DNA of 27,144 bases, taken from IMG/VR virus record IMGVR_UViG_3300021400_000789. One strand, given 5' to 3'. The translations under genes were made by a program, and so were the position numbers. The stretch comes from an uncultured virus (IMG/VR IMGVR_UViG_3300021400_000789) (lineage: Duplodnaviria > Heunggongvirae > Uroviricota > Caudoviricetes). Positions 2 to 11,764 of this stretch are shown piece after piece; positions within the stretch are counted from its first letter, which is position 1; every line of letters starts with the position of its first letter. The notes below the pieces were generated by a model, which saw nothing but the letters and a program-made list of their open reading frames with translations, made no database searches and was not told the DNA's origin.

Positions 2-403
2 CTCACACCAGCCGCAAAGAAGAAACTCATGATCGCGGACAACAAGATCTTCAACCTCGGCGTCGAGAACCTGACCGTCCTGAACGAGTTCATAGAGGAA
101 CTGAGGGACGACCTCGACATACCGGGCTTCGATGAAGACATCCTCCGGGACATGGTGGCGGATGCCGAGGAAGTGACCGAGACGATCGCAAGCTACGGGC
201 TGCTCGATGAAGAGGAAGTGCAGGAAGTAAGGCAGGCAAGTGCCGAACGGGAAGCGAGGCGGGAAGCCTCCCCTGAGCCCACAGAAAGAGCTGTGAGCGC
301 TCAGAACAGCCCAGACGACTTACAGACTGCCGAAGCCGGGGAGAGCGCTGAGAACGGCAGATTCATCACATGCCCCAAGTGCGGTGAGAAGATATGGCTG
401 TAA
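2..403 (+). CDS. ParB-like N-terminal domain protein, 5'-truncated, with C-terminal CPKCG knuckle
   Basis: The frame is open from base 2 (LTPAAKKKLMIADNK..., resembling the end of a phage ParB-like domain), so ATG 29 is probably internal. Acidic linker, then FITCPKCGEKIWL; overlaps the next gene. Confidence 0.7.
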   Translation, partial: LTPAAKKKLMIADNKIFNLGVENLTVLNEFIEELRDDLDIPGFDEDILRDMVADAEEVTETIASYGLLDEEEVQEVRQASAEREARREASPEPTERAVSAQNSPDDLQTAEAGESAENGRFITCPKCGEKIWL

Positions 404-1548
404 AGCGGAAGCAGGGAACGATCAACGTGGTGCAGGCCGCGGAGATGCGTGTACGGAACGTCTTTAGGAACGGCCTCCCTGTGTACATGAGCTTTTCCGG
501 AGGGAAGGACAGCCTGTGCCTCGCGAACGTGACCCTCGAACTGATCCAGAGGGGCGAGATCGACCCGGCACAGCTGACAGTTCAGTTCATCGACGAGGAA
601 GCGATCTTCCCGTGCATCGAGGAGATGACCAAACAGTGGAGAAGGAAGTTCCTCATGGTGGGAGCGAAGTTCGCGTGGTACTGCATGCAGTACAGGCATT
701 TCAACTGCTTCAACGCATTGGAGAACGACGAATCCTTTATATGCTGGGACGCGGAAAAGTCTGACAGGTGGGTAAGACAGCCACCGCCGTTCGCCATAAG
801 GAACGACCCGCAGCTCCGGGAAAGGGTGGACTCCTATCAGCAGTTCCTCGACAAGAAGTGCGCGATGGGGATGACGATGGTCGGCGTACGGACAGCGGAA
901 TCGCTGCAGCGCCTCCAGAACATCGCCAAGGTCCCGCACCAGAGGAAAGGATCACTGGGAAGACGGAAGATCTATCCGATCTACGACTGGAAGGATTCGG
1001 ACGTCTGGCTCTACCTGAAGGAGCACAAGGTCGACATCCCGGACATATACCTCTACATGTGGCAGGCCGGCGCGACCAGGAGACAGATGCGCGTCTCGCA
1101 GTTCTTCTCCGTCGATACCGCAAGGTCGCTCGTCAAGATGAACGAGTATTACCCGCACCTGCTCGACTCCATCATACGCCGTGAGCCGAACGCCTACCTC
1201 GCCGCCCTTTACTGGGACTCGGAAATGTTCGGCAGGAGCACGAGGACGAGGCGCACGCTCGAAAAGGAGACAGAAAAGAAAGACTACCGTGCGGAACTGA
1301 ACCACGTTTTCAGGAACTTCGACACGTATTTCCAGACAAAGCACAAAAGGAAAGTGGCAAGCGCCTACAGGAACTTCTACCTGTCGACCGCCGCGCTCCT
1401 GAACGACCAGCAGGCAAAGAGCCTGTATGAATCACTGATGGCCGGCGACCCGAAGCTGAGGAGCCTGAGGGCGCTGTACCAGAACGTCTACAGCAAATAC
1501 GTGGAAAGCGCGAAGGAAGAATTGAAAGCGAGGCCGAATGATGGATAA
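394..1548 (+). CDS. PAPS-reductase-family PP-loop protein (IbrA-like)
   Basis: PP-loop SFSGGKDS, plus FIDEEAIFP, GVRTAESLQR and YPIYDWKDSDVW motifs; adjacent to a ParB-like gene as in ibrAB. Confidence 0.88.
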   Translation: MAVKRKQGTINVVQAAEMRVRNVFRNGLPVYMSFSGGKDSLCLANVTLELIQRGEIDPAQLTVQFIDEEAIFPCIEEMTKQWRRKFLMVGAKFAWYCMQYRHFNCFNALENDESFICWDAEKSDRWVRQPPPFAIRNDPQLRERVDSYQQFLDKKCAMGMTMVGVRTAESLQRLQNIAKVPHQRKGSLGRRKIYPIYDWKDSDVWLYLKEHKVDIPDIYLYMWQAGATRRQMRVSQFFSVDTARSLVKMNEYYPHLLDSIIRREPNAYLAALYWDSEMFGRSTRTRRTLEKETEKKDYRAELNHVFRNFDTYFQTKHKRKVASAYRNFYLSTAALLNDQQAKSLYESLMAGDPKLRSLRALYQNVYSKYVESAKEELKARPNDG

Positions 1549-2062
1549 GAAACTGTCCGCACCGTTATCCACCCTCCAGTGGGTGGACAGGGATGCATTG
1601 AAACCGAATGATTACAACCCGAACAAAGTATCCGAAGAGAACCTGAAACTGCTGACACAGTCCATCCTCACCAACGGCTGGACGCTCCCGATCGTGTGCA
1701 GGGAAGACCTTACCATCATCGACGGGTTCCACAGATGGACAGTGGCGGGAAGGGAACCGCTTAGGTCCAAGCTCGACAACAAGGTGCCAATCGTCATCGT
1801 CATCCATAAGGAACACGCCGAGGACATTTACGGAACGGTCACGCACAACCGGGCAAGAGGAACGCACCTTCTGGAACCAATGAAGGCGATCGTCAAGGAG
1901 CTGATCGGTGAGGGCAAGTCCGTCGAAGAGATCGGCAGGGAGCTCGGCATGCGTCCGGAAGAAGTGTTCCGGCTGTCGGACTTCAGCCGTGAGGACTTCC
2001 TGAACATGATGGTTGCAGGAAACACGAAGTATTCCCAGGCGGAATACATCACAAGGATATGA
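1538..2062 (+). CDS. ParB/Srx-domain protein (IbrB-like)
   Basis: PNDYNPN, IIDGFHRW and THNRARGTH motifs; C-terminal HTH-like segment (SVEEIGRELGMRPEEVFRL). Confidence 0.88.
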   Translation: MMDKKLSAPLSTLQWVDRDALKPNDYNPNKVSEENLKLLTQSILTNGWTLPIVCREDLTIIDGFHRWTVAGREPLRSKLDNKVPIVIVIHKEHAEDIYGTVTHNRARGTHLLEPMKAIVKELIGEGKSVEEIGRELGMRPEEVFRLSDFSREDFLNMMVAGNTKYSQAEYITRI

Positions 2063-2123: not shown

Positions 2124-2213
2124 GGGAACATAGCTCAACAACAACGGAAAGAGCGCGGGGCGCGCTTAAACTCAGGAGAATCCGAGGTGAAGGTTCGAAT
2201 CCTTCTGTTCCCG
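2124..2213 (+). ncRNA. tRNA-like element lacking a canonical anticodon loop
   Basis: Acceptor GGGAACA(2124-2130)/TGTTCCC(2206-2212); TA linker; D-stem GCTC/GAGC; T-arm GAAGG-TTCGAAT-CCTTC(2189-2205). The anticodon arm is a 4-bp stem closing a ~21-nt loop. Confidence 0.75.
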
Positions 2214-6716: not shown

Positions 6717-7940
6717 ATGCTGACACCGGAATACCTTGCGGGATGCAGTGATTACATCCTCGGGCTGTACGACCAGCTGGAAACGCAGATCATCACCGAC
6801 ATCGCAAGGCGGCTCGTGGAGAACGGATACCCGACGGACACGGCCATATGGCAGTACCAGCAGGTGCAGGAGATCGGGGCGCTGCAGGACGAGGTCAACC
6901 GTCAGATATCGGAGATGACCGGGAAGACAGCGAAGGAGATCGAGAAGCTGTTCAAGGAAGCCGGGGCGATTAACATCCAGACGAACGCTGCGCCTTTAGT
7001 GGCTGAGGGCATCGAGGTGGACAGGAGCATGTCCATCGCCATGCGTCAGGTGCTTGAGGCGGAGATAAGGCGGACACAGGGAGACCTGATGAACCTTACG
7101 AGGACAACGGCGGGTACAGCCGCCTCTCTCTACCAGCAGATGTCCAACCAGGCGTACATGCAGTCCATCTCAGGTGCGTTCTCACCGCAGCAGGCCTTAC
7201 GTGCTGCTATCATCGGCGCGGCGCAGGAAGGAGCTTATGTGCAGTTCGCGAAGAGGAAAGACCACCTTGACGTTGCGATCCGCAGGAACCTGCTGACTTC
7301 CGTCAACCAGACAGCGGCTAAGCTGACCGAGATGCAGGCGGAAGCGATGGACGTGGAGTATTACGAGGTGTCAGCGCATTTCGGGGCGAGACCTTCCCAC
7401 TCCGTATGGCAGGGGAAGATCTACAAGATCGACGGAAGCTCGTTCGAGTACCCGAACTTCGCGGATTCCACGGGGTACGGCACAGCAGGCGGTCTGTGCG
7501 GGGTGAACTGCCGGCACAACTTCTATCCGTTCTGGCCGGGGATATCAAAGCCGAACTGGCCGCAGGAACGTCTGGACGAGTTCGAGAACCACCGGGTGAA
7601 GTACAAGGGAGTCGAGTATTCGGATTACGAGGCATCGCAGGAACAGCGTGCGCAAGAGAGGAACATCCGGGAACTGCGGAGACAGCTCGCATCCCTTGAC
7701 GCAGCCATGCAGGCAGCCACGGACGACGAGATGGAGGAAGAGCTGTCGGAGGATTTCAAGAAGAAAGCAAAGATCCTGAAAGCCAGGGAGAGGGAATTGA
7801 AGAAGTTCTGCAGGGAGACCGGACGGACATACGAGAGCAACCGAGTGCAGGTGGTCGCCTACAAGGACAAGAACGGAAGGGTCGTGCGCTTCGGTCGTTC
7901 TACATCGCAGAAGGCTGTGCACGCCAGCAAGAAGGATTAA
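6717..7940 (+). CDS. Minor capsid / head morphogenesis protein (Phage_min_cap2-like)
   Basis: MLTPEYL start; EVSAHFGARPSH...WQG and GLCGVNCRHNFYPF motifs; follows the portal. Confidence 0.88.
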   Translation: MLTPEYLAGCSDYILGLYDQLETQIITDIARRLVENGYPTDTAIWQYQQVQEIGALQDEVNRQISEMTGKTAKEIEKLFKEAGAINIQTNAAPLVAEGIEVDRSMSIAMRQVLEAEIRRTQGDLMNLTRTTAGTAASLYQQMSNQAYMQSISGAFSPQQALRAAIIGAAQEGAYVQFAKRKDHLDVAIRRNLLTSVNQTAAKLTEMQAEAMDVEYYEVSAHFGARPSHSVWQGKIYKIDGSSFEYPNFADSTGYGTAGGLCGVNCRHNFYPFWPGISKPNWPQERLDEFENHRVKYKGVEYSDYEASQEQRAQERNIRELRRQLASLDAAMQAATDDEMEEELSEDFKKKAKILKARERELKKFCRETGRTYESNRVQVVAYKDKNGRVVRFGRSTSQKAVHASKKD

Positions 7941-7999
7941 GTAACAAAGTGAAACTAAAGTGAACATATTGCCCGCACAGGGCAGGATAAGGAGGTAAC

Positions 8000-8749
8000 A
8001 TGGGAGCAAAGGGAACATCATTCAGCTCTTTCGTAGACAGGCTGAACGAGATCATGGCGAAAAGAGGAGTATCACCCGGCAGGCTCGCCGAACAGATCGG
8101 TGATACGGAAAGCAGGGTCAAAGAGTATATCGCAGGGCAGAGGTGCCCGAATGCAGTGATCATCATGAAAATCGCGGAAGCACTCGGCACTTCTCCCGAA
8201 TGGCTCTACGGCCTCCCGGAAAAGAAGACCATGTTCTTCTCGGAAGCGCTCGACGCCATGAAGCATGGAGCGAAGGTGAAGCTCCCCACATGGGCCGGCT
8301 ACTGGGAATGGGACAGCGAGAAGCAGACCGTCCTGATGCACTGCCGTCCGGAAGAATCCGATAATGGCGAACCTGTCCTTGATATCCGGGAATCACAGCG
8401 GGTTGAGTACACGCTCCGCAATATCTGTTCGACTGAATGGATGATCGCGGATGAAGACAACTGCCCGAAGCTCGGCGGAAGGCAGACGGGTCTCTCATTT
8501 GGTGATGCCATCAACATGGCCAAGCGCTACGGAAAGAAGATCGCCCGTGCCGGCTGGAACGGGAAGGGACAGTACGTGGAGCTTGCGACCTGCATCAGCT
8601 ACAAGAACGCTGCCGGCAAGACGGTCAACGCGGAGCATGACGCGATCGGGAACAAGGCGTTCGCTTTCGTCGGGACATCCGGCGTTCAGATGGGATGGCT
8701 CGCGTCTCAGGCCGACATGCTTGCGACCGACTGGGAAGTAGTCGAATAA
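8000..8749 (+). CDS. XRE-type HTH fused to two tandem DUF2829/Tad2-like domains
   Basis: RBS TAAGGAGG. aa ~10-72 form an HTH (RLNEIMAKRGVSPGRLAEQIG...P...IIMKIAEALGTSPEWLYG). aa 78-150 read FSEALDAMKHGAKVKLPTW...ICSTEW. aa 165-249 read FGDAI...GKKIARAGWNGKGQY...GWLASQADMLATDWEVV, the DUF2829/Tad2 signature. Confidence 0.85.
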   Translation: MGAKGTSFSSFVDRLNEIMAKRGVSPGRLAEQIGDTESRVKEYIAGQRCPNAVIIMKIAEALGTSPEWLYGLPEKKTMFFSEALDAMKHGAKVKLPTWAGYWEWDSEKQTVLMHCRPEESDNGEPVLDIRESQRVEYTLRNICSTEWMIADEDNCPKLGGRQTGLSFGDAINMAKRYGKKIARAGWNGKGQYVELATCISYKNAAGKTVNAEHDAIGNKAFAFVGTSGVQMGWLASQADMLATDWEVVE

Positions 8750-8763
8750 CAGGAGGACCCGGC

Positions 8764-8973
8764 ATGGCAAAGAAAAAGAAGGACAAGAAACAGAAGAAAC
8801 AGAAGATCCGCATATTCTTCCGGGACGGGAAGAAGGACATCATCCCGCAGAAGTTCTGGGATGATTACGAAGTCCTCGCAAAGGATAGCGGAATCTATCT
8901 CATCATCATCAAGAATGAACAGTGGATTGCCGGCTACAACATGCGTGATGTGACGGCATTCACAGTCGGATAA
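8764..8973 (+). CDS. Small hypothetical protein with Lys-rich N-terminus (69 aa)
   Basis: AGGAGG at 8751-8756 precedes ATG 8764 (MAKKKKDKKQKKQKIRIFF...). The track's 8695 start overlaps the upstream gene. Confidence 0.75.
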   Translation: MAKKKKDKKQKKQKIRIFFRDGKKDIIPQKFWDDYEVLAKDSGIYLIIIKNEQWIAGYNMRDVTAFTVG

Positions 8974-8984
8974 GGAGGAAATTT

Positions 8985-9260
8985 ATGGGAAGCAAAGAAT
9001 ATATCCAGTTCTGCAAGGAGCAGATCGTCGAGTATTACAACGGAAGGGCGGACAAGACCGATAAGAACGGGCACATCACGACGGATGACGTGTTCGTCGT
9101 CTGGTACAGCAAGACGCTTCAGAACCAGAAGGCCCTGCTCAGCACGACCGTCCCTGACGGCATGTACTACGAGGTCACGTTCAACGGTGACAAGTCCGAA
9201 GCGTATCTGGATGCCTACAAGAAGTGGGAGAACAAGTGCATCCATGTAAGCAGCAAATAA
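8985..9260 (+). CDS. Conserved phage protein, DUF6275-like
   Basis: TAAGGAGG RBS; motif VFVVWYSKTLQNQKALLST...DGMYYEVTFNGDK.E.YLDAYKKWEN. Confidence 0.8.
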   Translation: MGSKEYIQFCKEQIVEYYNGRADKTDKNGHITTDDVFVVWYSKTLQNQKALLSTTVPDGMYYEVTFNGDKSEAYLDAYKKWENKCIHVSSK

Positions 9261-9309
9261 CCCGGGAACATATCCGTTCCCATCACAGATCAGATCAAGG
9301 AGGTGAACA

Positions 9310-9966
9310 ATGTCGATATTTCATAAAACGATTGTTGCTGTGGAAGTAAAGGATGACAGCCCGGAGACAAGGGAACGCCTTACGTCACAGCTCTGCATGG
9401 AAGACCCTGTGTTCGTGTACAACGATACGACGGGCGCGCTCGAGCTCATGCTTCCCCGTGAAGAGGATGGCAGTATATCAACGGTACCGCTCGGGAAGTG
9501 GCTGTTCCGGAACGATGAAGGGAAATTCGGGTTCCTTTCCTACGATGAACTGGTGGAGCAGTACGGCCAGCCGATCGAGGGAACGGAAGATTTTGGGACG
9601 GCAACGTCAAGGAAGCTCTTCATATCATGCCCGATGAAGGGGCGGAGCGAAGAGGTGGTCTACCGGGAATTCGACAGGCTCTGCAGGGTCGCCGAGGCAT
9701 ATTTCGATGAAACGTTCGACGTTATTGAATCCTTCTTCGAGGAAGAGCCTCCGGAAGGGATCACGGGTGACAAGGCTGCCGTCTGGTATCTCGGAAAATC
9801 GATCTCGAAGATCTCCGAGGCGGATGTCGCGATCTTTGCGGAAGGCTGGTATGACGCCAGGGGATGCAGGGTCGAGCACGATGTCTGCAGGTCGTACGGC
9901 ATCCCTGTCATTGAAGTGGAGCTCCATAAGGCCCGCCGGCCAGAACCTGTGGAGTGTGAGCCTTGA
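9310..9966 (+). CDS. Two-domain protein: small phage beta domain plus DUF4406-like (nucleoside deoxyribosyltransferase-like fold) domain
   Basis: AAGGAGGTG RBS; C-domain from ~9610: KLFISCPMKG...ISEADVAIFAEGWYDARGCRVEHDVC..YGIPVI. Confidence 0.7.
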   Translation: MSIFHKTIVAVEVKDDSPETRERLTSQLCMEDPVFVYNDTTGALELMLPREEDGSISTVPLGKWLFRNDEGKFGFLSYDELVEQYGQPIEGTEDFGTATSRKLFISCPMKGRSEEVVYREFDRLCRVAEAYFDETFDVIESFFEEEPPEGITGDKAAVWYLGKSISKISEADVAIFAEGWYDARGCRVEHDVCRSYGIPVIEVELHKARRPEPVECEP

Positions 9967-10241
9967 CCTGCAGGGCTGCGTTCGAATGTGAGGCGTTCAT
10001 GCTTACGGCGGACGCAGAACGCACAGCACCGTCCTGGTTCTGCATCAGGGCGAGGCAGGGGCTGATACAGCTCGACTTCAGGATCGTGGACGGTTCATCG
10101 AAGCTCCGCGGGTGCACGATCCAGACAGGACGTGGGAACATCACGGCCAGCGTCGGGGATTATATCGTGAAGTACCCGAACGGCCACCTGTTCCCGTTCG
10201 ACAAGAAAACTTATGAAAGGCTCTTCTTAACATGCACATAA
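9963..10241 (+). CDS. Hypothetical phage protein with GDYIVK...G.LFP motif
   Basis: TTG start overlapping the upstream TGA (TTGA); GGAG 8 nt upstream; motif ASVGDYIVKYPNGHLFPFDKKTYERLF. Confidence 0.7.
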   Translation: MTCRAAFECEAFMLTADAERTAPSWFCIRARQGLIQLDFRIVDGSSKLRGCTIQTGRGNITASVGDYIVKYPNGHLFPFDKKTYERLFLTCT

Positions 10242-10591
10242 GCAAAAAAGTCAACGTGCTCGGAGTCAGGTACAAGATCAGGCTCCGGACATCAGATGAA
10301 GATGAAGATCTCAAGGGATGCGACGGTTACTGCCGTGAGTACCAGAAGCTCATCGCGGTAAGGGACTACAGAAGGGAAGACGTGATAGGATGCGCCAGCC
10401 GGAAAGAGGCAGAGAAGTGCATCAAGCATTCGCTCCGCCATGAGATCGTCCATGCGTTCCTGTTCGAATCCGGGCTTGGCTGGGATTCGGATGCGGCAGA
10501 ACACTGGGCAGTCCACGAAGAACTTGTGGACTGGATCGCCCGGATGCATCCGAGGATTCAGAAAGCGTACAAGGAAGCGGGATGCGCATGA
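10232..10591 (+). CDS. HEXXH zinc metallopeptidase-like protein (ImmA/IrrE-like zincin)
   Basis: LRHEIVHAFLFESG motif with downstream EELVD as candidate third ligand; upstream DGYC and IAV strands. Confidence 0.75.
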   Translation: MHISKKVNVLGVRYKIRLRTSDEDEDLKGCDGYCREYQKLIAVRDYRREDVIGCASRKEAEKCIKHSLRHEIVHAFLFESGLGWDSDAAEHWAVHEELVDWIARMHPRIQKAYKEAGCA

Positions 10592-10649
10592 CCATGTGAG
10601 CTCGTGGAATGACCATAGTCGAGATTTTAAGGAAAGGAGGTATATTTAT

Positions 10650-10694
10650 TTGCCGAGCAGCAAATTGACCATCAGAAGCCCGTCCAGGAGGTGA
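10650..10694 (+). CDS. Putative 14-aa leader peptide (MPSSKLTIRSPSRR)
   Basis: Perfect SD AAAGGAGGT(10633-10641) lies 8 nt before TTG 10650; the stop codon lies inside a hairpin. Confidence 0.35.
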   Translation: MPSSKLTIRSPSRR

Positions 10695-10754
10695 TCCATA
10701 TATCTCCCTTGCCTGAGGGTGAGAAGGCAGTAATAATCTGGTAAGTGCATTAGA

Positions 10755-10788
10755 AAACAATCGATAACAATGGAAACAATCGATAACA
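10755..10788. repeat. Direct repeat AAACAATCGATAACA x2
   Basis: Identical 15-mers at 10755-10769 and 10774-10788 in an AT-rich intergenic stretch. Confidence 0.85.
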
Positions 10789-10865
10789 CGTTATGGGATT
10801 GTTCATATTCTGCAGCCAGTCGTAACTTATTCAATCTTACAGTTATACAACTAAATTTTCACGGA

Positions 10866-10900
10866 AGGGAGTGCCGGTCCACAGCCGGCACTCTTTATTT
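10866..10900 (+). terminator. Intrinsic terminator-like hairpin
   Basis: GAGTGCCGGT(10869-10878)/GCCGGCACTC(10884-10893), loop CCACA, followed by TTTATTT. Confidence 0.7.
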
Positions 10901-10998
10901 GTCCTGGGCACGACGCTATAAAAGGTCCGCACGTTCATGCCCCGGCGGATGGGGGCGTTTACAAGTACGTCCTGAGCGGATGACTGAGTGAACAGTCG
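10900..10998 (+). promoter_or_regulatory. Structured 5' leader of the scaffold gene (two H-type pseudoknots plus a hairpin)
   Basis: PK1: TGTC/GACG and GGGC/GTCC. PK2: ATGCCCC/GGGGCGT and GGATG/CGTCC. Hairpin TGACTG/CAGTCG. Confidence 0.55.
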
Positions 10999-11038
10999 CT
11001 TAAACCAAATCAGCAATAAGCCATGAAAGGAGTACATT

Positions 11039-11764
11039 ATGGCATACGATTTCTTAAAGAAACTCTTCCCGGCGAATGAGGACGGGACACCGAAGGCAAT
11101 GACCTTCGAGGAACTCGAAGCAGCGATCAGCGCGGACAAAGGCATCAGCCTCGTCAACCTCAAGGACGGCGGATACGTGTCGCAGGACAAGTTTGACCGC
11201 AAACAGCAGGAACTGGCACAGGCCCAGTCATCCATCGAGACCCTGAACGGCACGATCGCAAAGAACACCACAGACCTCGAGGAACTGCAGAACCAGATCA
11301 AGGCGGCTGAGGGCGATGCGTCGAAGATCGCGGCTCTCACAAGCCAGGTCGCACAGCTGCAGACGGACGCAAAGACAGCAGCCGATAAGTATGAAGCGCA
11401 GCAGAAGGACTTCCAGAGCCAGCTCGAGAAGCAGGCGAACGAATTCGCGATCAAGACAAGGGTCGGCGGATTGAAGTTCTCATCCGCCTCAGCGAAGCGC
11501 GCATTCACACAGGACATCCTCGGCGCAGGTCTCAAGGTCGATGGTGAGAATGTCCTTGGCTTCGACGATTATGTCGCGAAGTACAAAGCGGAGATCGACC
11601 CGGACGCATTCGCGAAAGAGGAAGAGCCGAAAGAACCGGAGCCGAAGAACCAGACACCGCCCCCGATCTTCTCGGGCGGTACGCATAACGGCACAGGCGC
11701 AGGGAAGGAGAATGACTTCTCCAACCTGTTCCACTTCACGCAGGTCAACCCTGTGATTAAATAA
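11039..11764 (+). CDS. Capsid scaffolding protein (Phage_GP20-like)
   Basis: GYVSQDKFD motif, long coiled coil, Pro/Gly-rich tail; immediately upstream of MCP; AAAGGAG RBS. Confidence 0.85.
   Translation: MAYDFLKKLFPANEDGTPKAMTFEELEAAISADKGISLVNLKDGGYVSQDKFDRKQQELAQAQSSIETLNGTIAKNTTDLEELQNQIKAAEGDASKIAALTSQVAQLQTDAKTAADKYEAQQKDFQSQLEKQANEFAIKTRVGGLKFSSASAKRAFTQDILGAGLKVDGENVLGFDDYVAKYKAEIDPDAFAKEEEPKEPEPKNQTPPPIFSGGTHNGTGAGKENDFSNLFHFTQVNPVIK

What the first reader, a model, noticed from the sequence alone, without database searches (positions are those of the whole stretch)
8000..8749. XRE HTH fused to tandem Tad2/DUF2829 sponge domains: possible phage sensor-regulator of host immune signals
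Seen: one uninterrupted 249-aa ORF with a strong RBS, comprising a complete XRE-like HTH, a divergent Tad2-like domain (from 8231, no clear internal SD) and a canonical one (from ~8492; RAGWNGKG, W.ASQ.D.LA.DW). Established: Tad2 (DUF2829) is a tetrameric sponge that binds Thoeris gcADPR, and some homologs bind CBASS cyclic dinucleotides; characterised members are small stand-alone proteins. Inference: a dimer of this chain could rebuild the four-domain Tad2 assembly and present two HTHs, turning a sponge into a one-component transcription factor that reads immune second messengers and switches phage genes. I do not know of a described example, but could not search for one.
Basis: partly seen in the sequence, partly recalled or inferred. 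Interest (0 to 1): 0.85.

Follow-up and report, generated by a model that had tools for sequence, protein, structure and literature searches.

The report
Phage Tad2 sponge fused to HTH
A gut-phage gene joins a DNA-binding switch domain to a doubled copy of a known "sponge" that soaks up bacterial alarm molecules; the join is real but confined to one phage lineage, and most likely lets the sponge gene regulate itself.

Summary
Window 8000-8749 (+) is one 249-aa ORF with a strong Shine-Dalgarno. It has an XRE helix-turn-helix (HTH, residues 1-77), a divergent Tad2-like domain (78-160) and a canonical Tad2 domain (161-249).

The gene sits in a cluster of small accessory genes between the minor capsid and scaffold genes of a siphovirus-type phage.

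The doubled Tad2 part is a common stand-alone protein of about 170 aa (phrog_1048). In relatives it starts at the codon that is Met78 here and occupies the same genomic slot.

The HTH join is not an assembly artefact. It appears in 82 protein variants, 5 DNA loci, and DNA- and RNA-library contigs that bridge the junction. However, it is confined to one cluster at 90% identity. Only 2 of 150 distant representatives carry any HTH, and both are rare and truncated.

The HTH is the fastest-evolving part (dN/dS about 0.3-0.4). No operator, promoter or source gene could be established.

Best reading: a sponge with a built-in, Aca-like autoregulator, as in AcrIIA1 and AcrIIA15. The ligand-sensing transcription-factor idea is not excluded but has no support. 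It is a new variant of a known kind, of moderate interest.

The parts
7941..7999 (+). 59-bp upstream region that came in with the HTH. It holds the direct repeat AAAGTGAA at 7946 and 7957 (11-nt period; a third copy in some strains), a 5+5 inverted repeat at 7970-7984, and the Shine-Dalgarno AAGGAGG at 7989-7995.
   Evidence: The repeat occurs only here in the window and in the 65-kb related record. The inverted repeat is not above chance: 49 of 100 shuffles give at least one match. No sigma-70 consensus promoter was called.
8000..8749 (+). Fusion gene, 249 aa plus stop
8000..8230 (+). XRE-type HTH domain with linker (residues 1-77)
   Evidence: Pfam HTH_3 scores 35.4 bits when scanned alone. 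The fold matches P22 c2 repressor at Z 11.9, rmsd 1.9, 67 aligned, and also SinR, C.AhdI and 9iaq.
8231..8479 (+). Divergent Tad2-like domain (residues 78-160). It starts at the Met that is the start codon of stand-alone relatives. It keeps the Trp of the WNG motif but lacks the Asn and the SQxD motif.
8480..8746 (+). Canonical Tad2 domain (residues 161-249) with GWNGKG and SQAD motifs
   Evidence: PF11195 scores 72 bits. PDB sequence hits to SPO1 Tad2, SptTad2, ModTad2 and HgmTad2/AcrIIA7 have E 2e-8 to 8e-8. The fold match to SptTad2 is Z 11.6.
8764..8973 (+). Small lysine-rich ORF (69 aa), conserved directly after the tandem Tad2 gene in relatives
   Evidence: found in 6 of 80 viral loci
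8985..9260 (+). DUF6275 gene; this domain is fused to Tad2 in other phages
   Evidence: Pfam E 3e-35. The fusion cluster P0236 has 58 members.
9310..9966 (+). Gene with a DUF4406-like C-terminal domain (nucleoside deoxyribosyltransferase-like); this domain is fused to Tad2 in other phages
   Evidence: Pfam gives 20.3 bits, below the cut-off of 22. phrog_355 matches at E 4e-12. Fusions seen: P0189, P0238, P0253 and P0022.

Best explanation
The gene encodes a phage counter-defence sponge of the Tad2 family in single-chain, two-domain form: one degenerate and one canonical domain. In one lineage of animal-gut phages this sponge has gained an N-terminal XRE HTH, together with 59 bp of new upstream DNA.

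Shown: the three domains, the reality of the fusion, its confinement to one lineage, and the decay of the old internal ribosome-binding site.

Inferred: the canonical domain still binds Thoeris-type ADPR-derived signals. The HTH most likely works as a built-in, Aca-like autoregulator that sets the level of transcription of the sponge gene (and perhaps the accessory genes after it), independent of ligand. This is what the HTH domains of AcrIIA1, AcrIIA13 and AcrIIA15 do for anti-CRISPR genes.
For: Domains.

The fusion is real:
- 82 sequence variants; all 15 listed are 249 aa.
- 5 DNA loci all have an intact frame.
- A 2044-nt DNA contig and a 363-nt DNA contig bridge position 8231. RNA-library contigs of 597 and 457 nt also bridge it.

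Ancestry:
- Of the 120 best homologues, 119 lack the HTH. They are 163-279 aa, mostly 170-172 aa, and are up to 77% identical to residues 78-249.
- Stand-alone copies sit in the same slot after the minor capsid gene, behind good Shine-Dalgarno sites. That site has decayed in the fusion.

Ligand motifs: W186, N187, S237 and D240 are kept and one Thr is Ala. This is relative to HgmTad2 W21/N22 and S90/T92/D93, whose mutation reduced gcADPR binding (passages read). The mapping is by motif.

HTH constraint: dN/dS is about 0.3-0.4, changes are mostly conservative, and no frame is broken.

Local target: the AAAGTGAA repeat upstream occurs nowhere else in the window or in the 65-kb related record.

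Precedent: AcrIIA15 represses its own transcription while blocking Cas9 (PMC10901769, title and start of abstract in the listing). For AcrIIA39, only the closest homologues were fused to HTH domains (passage).
Against: - No operator was established. The only inverted repeat (5+5 bp) is what chance gives in 49 of 100 shuffles, and XRE dimers usually bind inverted rather than direct repeats.
- No sigma-70-like promoter was called upstream.
- An RNA-library contig runs from the capsid gene into the ORF. This is compatible with read-through transcription that an autorepressor could not control (contigs cannot show transcripts).
- The HTH is the least constrained part: 25 of 77 sites vary, against 4 of 89 in the canonical domain. 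The 6 synonymous and 8 non-synonymous changes are too few to exclude neutrality.
- Tad2 genes are not generally partnered with HTH genes. A home-made XRE profile found an HTH ORF within 1 kb at E < 1e-3 in only 5 of 131 loci. Two of these are the fusion itself and two are near-identical to each other.
Confidence: 0.45

Rival explanations
1. Ligand-gated one-component regulator. Binding of an immune second messenger to the Tad2 domains changes the HTH's DNA binding, so the phage reads host alarm signals and switches genes, for example de-repressing its own sponge.
For: - The architecture (N-terminal XRE HTH, short linker of about 10 residues, C-terminal small-molecule-binding and oligomerising domains) is that of many one-component regulators.
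- The ligand motifs of the canonical domain are intact.
- The internal Shine-Dalgarno has decayed, so most product should be the fused chain.
Against: - There is one lineage only. 0 of 52 genome loci and 0 of 71 phage records carry the fusion, and only 2 of 150 representatives have any HTH. Both of those lack Tad2 helix 1 and are rare: 2 sequences on 3 contigs, and a singleton.
- The HTH evolves fastest.
- No sign of coupling could be computed. Inter-domain confidence is modest (pTM 0.66).
Confidence: 0.12
2. Incidental recent fusion. An HTH cassette landed upstream and in frame, and the sponge works as in stand-alone relatives. The HTH is dispensable baggage or on its way to loss, and some protein may start at Met78.
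For: - Single lineage.
- Synonymous divergence of the HTH segment (0.125 against L002) is lower than that of the neighbouring domain (0.21), as expected for a younger or recently swept segment.
- The HTH has the highest dN/dS.
- Met78 is invariant in 15 of 15 variants.
- Tad2 is fused to many unrelated domains in representative proteins, some surely gene-calling artefacts.
Against: - The frame is intact in all 15 listed variants and all 5 DNA loci, although HTH identity falls to 75%.
- Changes are mostly conservative.
- The strong Shine-Dalgarno sits at the HTH start and there is none at Met78.
Confidence: 0.25
3. The HTH acts on other DNA, such as a host defence operon or the phage's own lysis-lysogeny genes. 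The Tad2 domains then serve mainly as the dimerisation module.
For: XRE regulators such as CapH control defence operons; CapH appears among the fold matches at Z 10.1. The related 65-kb phage record carries 8 HTH_3 genes, so regulatory cross-talk is conceivable.
Against: The closest paralogue in that phage is only 37% identical. The upstream motif has no other copy in the phage. The host genome is not available.
Confidence: 0.1
4. The tandem Tad2-like unit is not a nucleotide sponge but has another role, for example anti-CRISPR activity as first claimed for the DUF2829 protein AcrIIA7.
For: The degenerate N domain lacks most ligand-contact motifs. AcrIIA7 activity is still debated (passage). 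phrog_1048 is of unknown function.
Against: The canonical domain keeps the contact motifs and is 26-37% identical to solved sponges.
Confidence: 0.08

Closest known systems
Tad2 sponges (SPO1 gp34.65, HgmTad2/AcrIIA7, SptTad2, ModTad2; PF11195)
   Same: The C-terminal domain is a clear sequence and fold homologue with the WNG and SQxD contact motifs. It is phage-encoded and sits among small accessory genes.
   Different: This protein has two domains in one chain, the first degenerate, plus an N-terminal HTH. Solved members are single-domain chains of about 90-105 aa that form homotetramers. Oligomer state and ligand are untested here.
Stand-alone tandem Tad2 proteins (phrog_1048; e.g. gp19 of Ruminococcus gnavus phage phiRg507T2_3, 67% identical over residues 75-249)
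   Same: Same two-domain unit and the same position after the minor capsid gene. Relatives are up to 77% identical.
   Different: They lack the HTH and the 59-bp upstream segment. They start at the Met that is residue 78 here, behind a strong Shine-Dalgarno.
HTH-fused anti-CRISPRs (AcrIIA1, AcrIIA13, AcrIIA15, AcrIIA39 relatives)
   Same: An N-terminal HTH is joined to an anti-defence domain. For AcrIIA39, HTH fusions were likewise seen only among the closest homologues.
   Different: The inhibitor class differs: a small-molecule sponge rather than a Cas9 binder. There is no sequence kinship, and autorepression and the operator are not shown here.
Csa3-type regulators (CARF + HTH) that sense cyclic oligoadenylate (recalled, not from a call)
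   Same: They would be the functional analogue if the sensor reading were true: an immune-signal-binding domain joined to an HTH.
   Different: They are host-encoded, have unrelated folds and are widespread. Coupling is not shown here.

Membership tests
Tad2 / PF11195 | Sequence match above the Pfam gathering score | tested here: met
   Whole protein 85.3 bits. The C domain alone scores 72 bits against a cut-off of 25.
Tad2 / PF11195 (middle domain, residues 78-160) | Sequence match above the gathering score, or a clear fold match | tested here: inconclusive
   Pfam gives 20.8 bits, below 25. hhalign to the C-domain profile gives 94%, E 1.5e-7. The Foldseek top 18 ranks are all Tad2 chains, but the best E is 0.036. 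I accept it as a divergent Tad2-like domain.
Tad2 / PF11195 | Fold: N-terminal helix plus antiparallel sheet, as in solved Tad2 | tested here: met
   SptTad2 Z 11.6, rmsd 3.8, 81 aligned. HgmTad2 Z 11.4. SPO1 Z 11.2. ModTad2 Z 10.6.
Tad2 / PF11195 | gcADPR-contact residues (HgmTad2 W21/N22, S90/T92/D93) | tested here: met
   In the C domain W186, N187, S237 and D240 are kept and the Thr is Ala239. In the N domain only the Trp is kept. The numbering is mapped by motif, not by a structure superposition.
Tad2 / PF11195 | Tetrameric assembly (here: a dimer of two-domain chains) | not testable with these tools
   It needs SEC-MALS or a solved structure.
Tad2 / PF11195 | Binds and sequesters gcADPR, His-ADPR or cyclic dinucleotides | not testable with these tools
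   Needs ITC or a native gel.
XRE / HTH_3 (PF01381) | Sequence and fold of a Cro/C1-type HTH | tested here: met
   35.4 bits against a cut-off of 23. P22 c2 Z 11.9, SinR 11.6, C.AhdI 11.2.
Self-regulating anti-defence protein (AcrIIA1/AcrIIA15 type) | HTH and inhibitor domain in one chain | tested here: met
Self-regulating anti-defence protein (AcrIIA1/AcrIIA15 type) | Operator in its own promoter | tested here: inconclusive
   There are locally unique direct repeats and a 5+5 inverted repeat, but the inverted repeat is at chance level and no promoter was called.
Self-regulating anti-defence protein (AcrIIA1/AcrIIA15 type) | Represses its own transcription | not testable with these tools
   Needs a reporter assay or EMSA.
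Ligand-sensing one-component regulator | The architecture recurs across lineages, as for established sensor families | tested here: not met
   One cluster at 90% identity. 1 of the 120 best homologues, 2 of 150 representatives (both rare and truncated), 0 of 52 genome loci and 0 of 71 phage records carry it. Caveat: the 50% library files this fusion under a 171-aa representative, so other fusions could be hidden in the same way.
Ligand-sensing one-component regulator | DNA binding changes with the ligand | not testable with these tools
   Needs EMSA with and without ligand.

The most novel reading that the evidence does not exclude
The fused chain is a phage-encoded transcription factor that senses host immune second messengers through its Tad2 domains. 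For example, it could release its own promoter when gcADPR or His-ADPR appears, so that the sponge is made on demand. That would be the first viral regulator that reads bacterial alarm molecules.
Probability: 0.12. Interest if true: 0.85.

Novelty: new variant of a known kind. Interest (0 to 1): 0.45.

Why it matters
If the HTH regulates the sponge gene, the Acr-Aca logic of tight control over anti-defence expression would extend to signal sponges. That control could matter because some hosts appear to detect sponges through decoy nucleotides (Panoptes; PMC12657218, seen only as the start of its abstract in a listing).

The protein is also a ready-made test of whether a sponge fold can act as the sensor domain of a regulator.

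Separately, the work shows three things that are uncharacterised in the papers I could search. Single-chain two-domain Tad2 proteins with one degenerate domain are abundant in gut phages. Tad2 is repeatedly fused to or adjacent to DUF6275 domains. It is likewise repeatedly fused to or adjacent to DUF4406 domains.

Tried and rejected
- **Homodimer prediction.** Residues 75-249, 2 copies, scored 0.30 against a mark of 0.42, so there is no verdict either way.
- **Source of the HTH.** The 77-aa part found only the same fusion records in viral contigs and metagenome contigs. In the 5.8-billion-protein search it found only its own cluster, plus a 67-aa piece that ends mid-domain and reads as a fragment of the fusion.
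- **A false lead.** tblastn reported loci L004, L005 and L007 as matching residues 29-249. Their ORF list shows a stand-alone 172-aa gene and no HTH.
- **ESM Atlas.** It returned only generic HTH clusters at scores of 0.79 or less, which is not informative.
- **Operator and promoter search.** Nothing was above chance except the local uniqueness of the direct repeat. RNA folding of the leader gave z -0.18.
- **Paralogue check.** The nearest HTH in the related phage is 37% identical.
- **HTH hits in L113 and L123.** These lie 2.5-2.9 kb from Tad2 at 33-36% identity and are generic.
- **NCBIfam.** It gave only a sub-threshold RstR-like HTH hit, 27.6 bits against a cut-off of 80.
- **Own genome.** It is not held, so the host and its defence systems could not be examined.
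- **Literature.** Searches for Tad2 with helix-turn-helix, DUF2829, Tad2+Thoeris+Aca and Tad2+Thoeris+tandem found no description of an HTH-Tad2 or tandem-Tad2 protein. Of these papers I read passages only from five. bioRxiv supplements were not seen.

Full report
**The sequence**

Window 8000-8749 (+) is one open frame of 249 codons. AAGGAGG lies at 7989-7995, four bases before the ATG.

Pfam finds an XRE-type HTH_3 at residues 17-69 and the Tad2-like domain PF11195 in two stretches, the best at 166-248. PHROGs matches residues 75-249 end to end to phrog_1048 (E 2e-50, function unknown).

**Context**

All large ORFs run on the + strand and read as a siphovirus-type phage. In order they are:
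- ParB-like, PAPS-reductase-like and ParB-like genes;
- two tRNA genes;
- small and large terminase, portal, and minor capsid protein 2 (6717-7940);
- a run of small accessory genes (8000-10591);
- a 450-bp non-coding stretch with a terminator-like hairpin (10866-10896);
- scaffold, major capsid, connectors, tape measure, Dit and tail proteins.

The finding is the first gene of the accessory run.

**The three domains**

A full-length AlphaFold model (pLDDT 87, pTM 0.66) was compared with solved structures.
- Residues 4-73 match Cro/C1-type repressors: P22 c2 Z 11.9, SinR 11.6, C.AhdI 11.2.
- Residues 162-249 match SptTad2 (Z 11.6), HgmTad2/AcrIIA7 (11.4), SPO1 Tad2 (11.2) and ModTad2 (10.6).
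- PDB sequence hits to the same Tad2 proteins have E 2e-8 to 8e-8.

The middle domain alone is below Pfam's cut-off (20.8 against 25 bits) and barely similar to the C domain by BLASTP (E 0.15). Three other results place it in the family:
- Its profile matches the C-domain profile at 94%, E 1.5e-7. This is after removing three rows whose first domain is canonical; with them the match is 98.5%.
- Its own model (pLDDT 94.4) returns only Tad2 chains in the first 18 Foldseek ranks. The E-values are weak, best 0.036.
- The alignment shows the same helix and strand layout.

I therefore accept it as a divergent Tad2-like domain.

The ligand-contact motifs differ between the two domains. The middle domain keeps the Trp of the GWNGKG motif but has lost the Asn and the SQxD motif. 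The C domain keeps W, N, S and D and has Ala for the Thr. The reference residues are HgmTad2 W21/N22 and S90/T92/D93, whose mutation reduced gcADPR binding (passages read). My mapping is by motif.

**The doubled Tad2 is an ordinary stand-alone protein**

The near-length homologue search found 5309 proteins at E <= 0.001. Of the 120 best, 119 lack the HTH. They are mostly 170-172 aa, up to 77% identical, and cover residues 78-249.

In related viral contigs the 172-179-aa gene lies in the same place, directly after the minor capsid gene. It is followed by the same small lysine-rich ORF and a DUF6275 gene.

These genes start at the codon that is Met78 here, behind AAGGAGG-type sites. In the window the corresponding bases read GGAAAAGAAGACC and encode the linker. 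The fusion therefore arose by insertion of about 290 bp, comprising 59 bp of upstream DNA plus the HTH, in frame in front of an existing gene. The old ribosome-binding site then decayed.

**Is the fusion real and how common is it?**

It is real.
- Its 90% cluster has 82 distinct sequences. All 15 listed are 249 aa, from several archives and many contigs.
- Five DNA loci carry an intact frame.
- Contigs of two DNA runs bridge 8231: 2044 nt covering 7700-8871, and 363 nt covering 8033-8392.
- Contigs of two RNA libraries also bridge it: 597 nt covering 7776-8372, and 457 nt covering 7857-8298. RNA-library contigs do not prove transcription.
- 20 listed runs from 12 studies, recorded as animal gut including bovine, hold at least part of the stretch, 7 of them half or more. 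I laid only 4.

It is also narrow.
- The HTH part finds only its own cluster, plus one fragment.
- 0 of 52 loci in species-representative genomes carry it.
- 0 of 71 matching phage records carry it. The best isolate matches are a Ruminococcus gnavus phage (67%) and a Dorea phage (61%), both without the HTH.
- Among the 150 best representatives at 50% clustering, 2 have an HTH. P0222 has 2 sequences on 3 contigs, beside three 83-aa stand-alone forms in the same cluster. P0281 is a singleton. Both lack the first Tad2 helix and have a different layout.

One caveat applies. That library files the window's fusion under a 171-aa representative, so other N-terminal fusions could be hidden in the same way.

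A home-made XRE profile was checked on known HTH ORFs it had not been built from. It found an HTH ORF within 1 kb of Tad2 at E < 1e-3 in only 5 of 131 loci. Two of these are the fusion and two are near-identical to each other. HTH partners are therefore not a general feature of Tad2 loci.

**Constraint on the HTH**

Variable sites among the 15 variants:

| Domain | Variable sites |
|---|---|
| HTH | 25 of 77 |
| Middle domain | 14 of 83 |
| Canonical domain | 4 of 89 |

Pairwise dN/dS over 5 DNA sequences:

| Domain | dN/dS |
|---|---|
| HTH | about 0.3-0.4 in the pairs with most changes (6 synonymous and 8 non-synonymous changes against L002) |
| Middle domain | 0.1-0.18 |
| Canonical domain | 0.02-0.07 |

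The HTH is thus kept open and changes mostly conservatively. The counts are too small to exclude neutrality. Its lower synonymous divergence (0.125 against 0.21-0.46) fits a younger or recently swept segment.

**Search for a target**

The new upstream DNA holds AAAGTGAA twice with an 11-nt period. Some strains have a third copy. It also holds a 5+5 inverted repeat at 7970-7984.

The direct repeat has no other exact copy in the window or in the 65-kb related record. The inverted repeat is what chance gives in 49 of 100 shuffles. No sigma-70 consensus promoter was called.

The related phage has 8 HTH_3 genes. The nearest to the fused HTH is only 37% identical.

**Mechanism**

The canonical domain most likely still sequesters Thoeris-type signals. 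This is inferred from the motifs and from homology.

For the HTH, the simplest reading with precedent is an Aca-like autoregulator built into the anti-defence protein. AcrIIA15 is the clearest precedent (PMC10901769; title and start of abstract seen in the listing). AcrIIA1 and AcrIIA13b appear in the same listing, and only the start of each abstract was seen. The HTH fusions of AcrIIA39 are likewise restricted to its closest homologues (passage). I give this reading 0.45.

The other readings and my odds are:

| Reading | Confidence |
|---|---|
| Incidental young fusion | 0.25 |
| Action on other DNA | 0.10 |
| A non-sponge role of the tandem unit | 0.08 |

Nothing computed here speaks for coupling between ligand and DNA binding, and nothing excludes it.

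**Verdict**

It is a new variant of a known kind: a Tad2 family member with a lineage-specific HTH, parallel to HTH-fused anti-CRISPRs. I found no description of an HTH-Tad2 or tandem-Tad2 protein in four literature searches. I did not test that note.

Noticed in passing
window 8985-9260 and 9310-9966; proteins P0236, P0189, P0238, P0253, P0022: The DUF6275 gene and the DUF4406-like gene that follow the Tad2 gene here are found fused to Tad2 domains elsewhere. DUF6275-Tad2 forms a 58-member cluster on many long contigs. DUF4406-Tad2 includes a RefSeq protein of Enterocloster asparagiformis seen on 43 contigs. In L003 the DUF4406-like gene lies directly upstream of the tandem Tad2. A relative of the window's DUF6275 protein lies within the flanks of 12 of 80 viral and 7 of 52 genome Tad2 loci. 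For the DUF4406-like protein the counts are 3 of 80 and 4 of 52. This Rosetta-stone pattern marks both domains as candidate partners or alternative counter-defence modules.
   Followed up: partly
window 8231-8749 and phrog_1048: Single-chain two-domain Tad2 proteins with a degenerate first domain are abundant in gut Clostridia phages: 5309 near-length hits. They are of unknown function in PHROGs. How many ligand pockets such a pseudo-heterodimer keeps is open.
   Followed up: partly
window 8764-8973: A small ORF with a lysine-rich N-terminus and no family match is conserved immediately after the tandem Tad2 gene in relatives.
   Followed up: no
window 10591-11039: A 450-bp non-coding stretch lies between the accessory genes and the scaffold gene. 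It has a 15-nt direct repeat around an ATCGAT core (about 10757-10795), two promoter-like sites (10619, 10709) and a 13-bp-stem terminator-like hairpin at 10866-10896. There is no Rfam match.
   Followed up: no
window 2124-2213 and 2305-2379: The phage carries two tRNA genes between the ParB-like gene and the small terminase gene. ARAGORN calls one as tRNA-Met (CAT). Rfam calls both.
   Followed up: no
window 2-2062: A ParB-like gene, a PAPS-reductase-like gene (phrog_2302, E 1e-87) and a second ParB-like gene lie ahead of the packaging genes. This may be a DNA-modification or partition module.
   Followed up: no
protein P0198 (213 aa): This Tad2-like representative has a weak RyR-domain match, at about the Pfam cut-off, in residues 117-171 of the stretch that matches Tad2. 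A 2026 preprint mentions a gcADPR sponge related to the ryanodine receptor (passage).
   Followed up: no
window 7946-7967; L002; runs X5 and X16: The copy number of the 10-11-nt AAAGTGAAAC-type repeat upstream of the fusion gene varies between strains, with 2 or 3 copies.
   Followed up: partly
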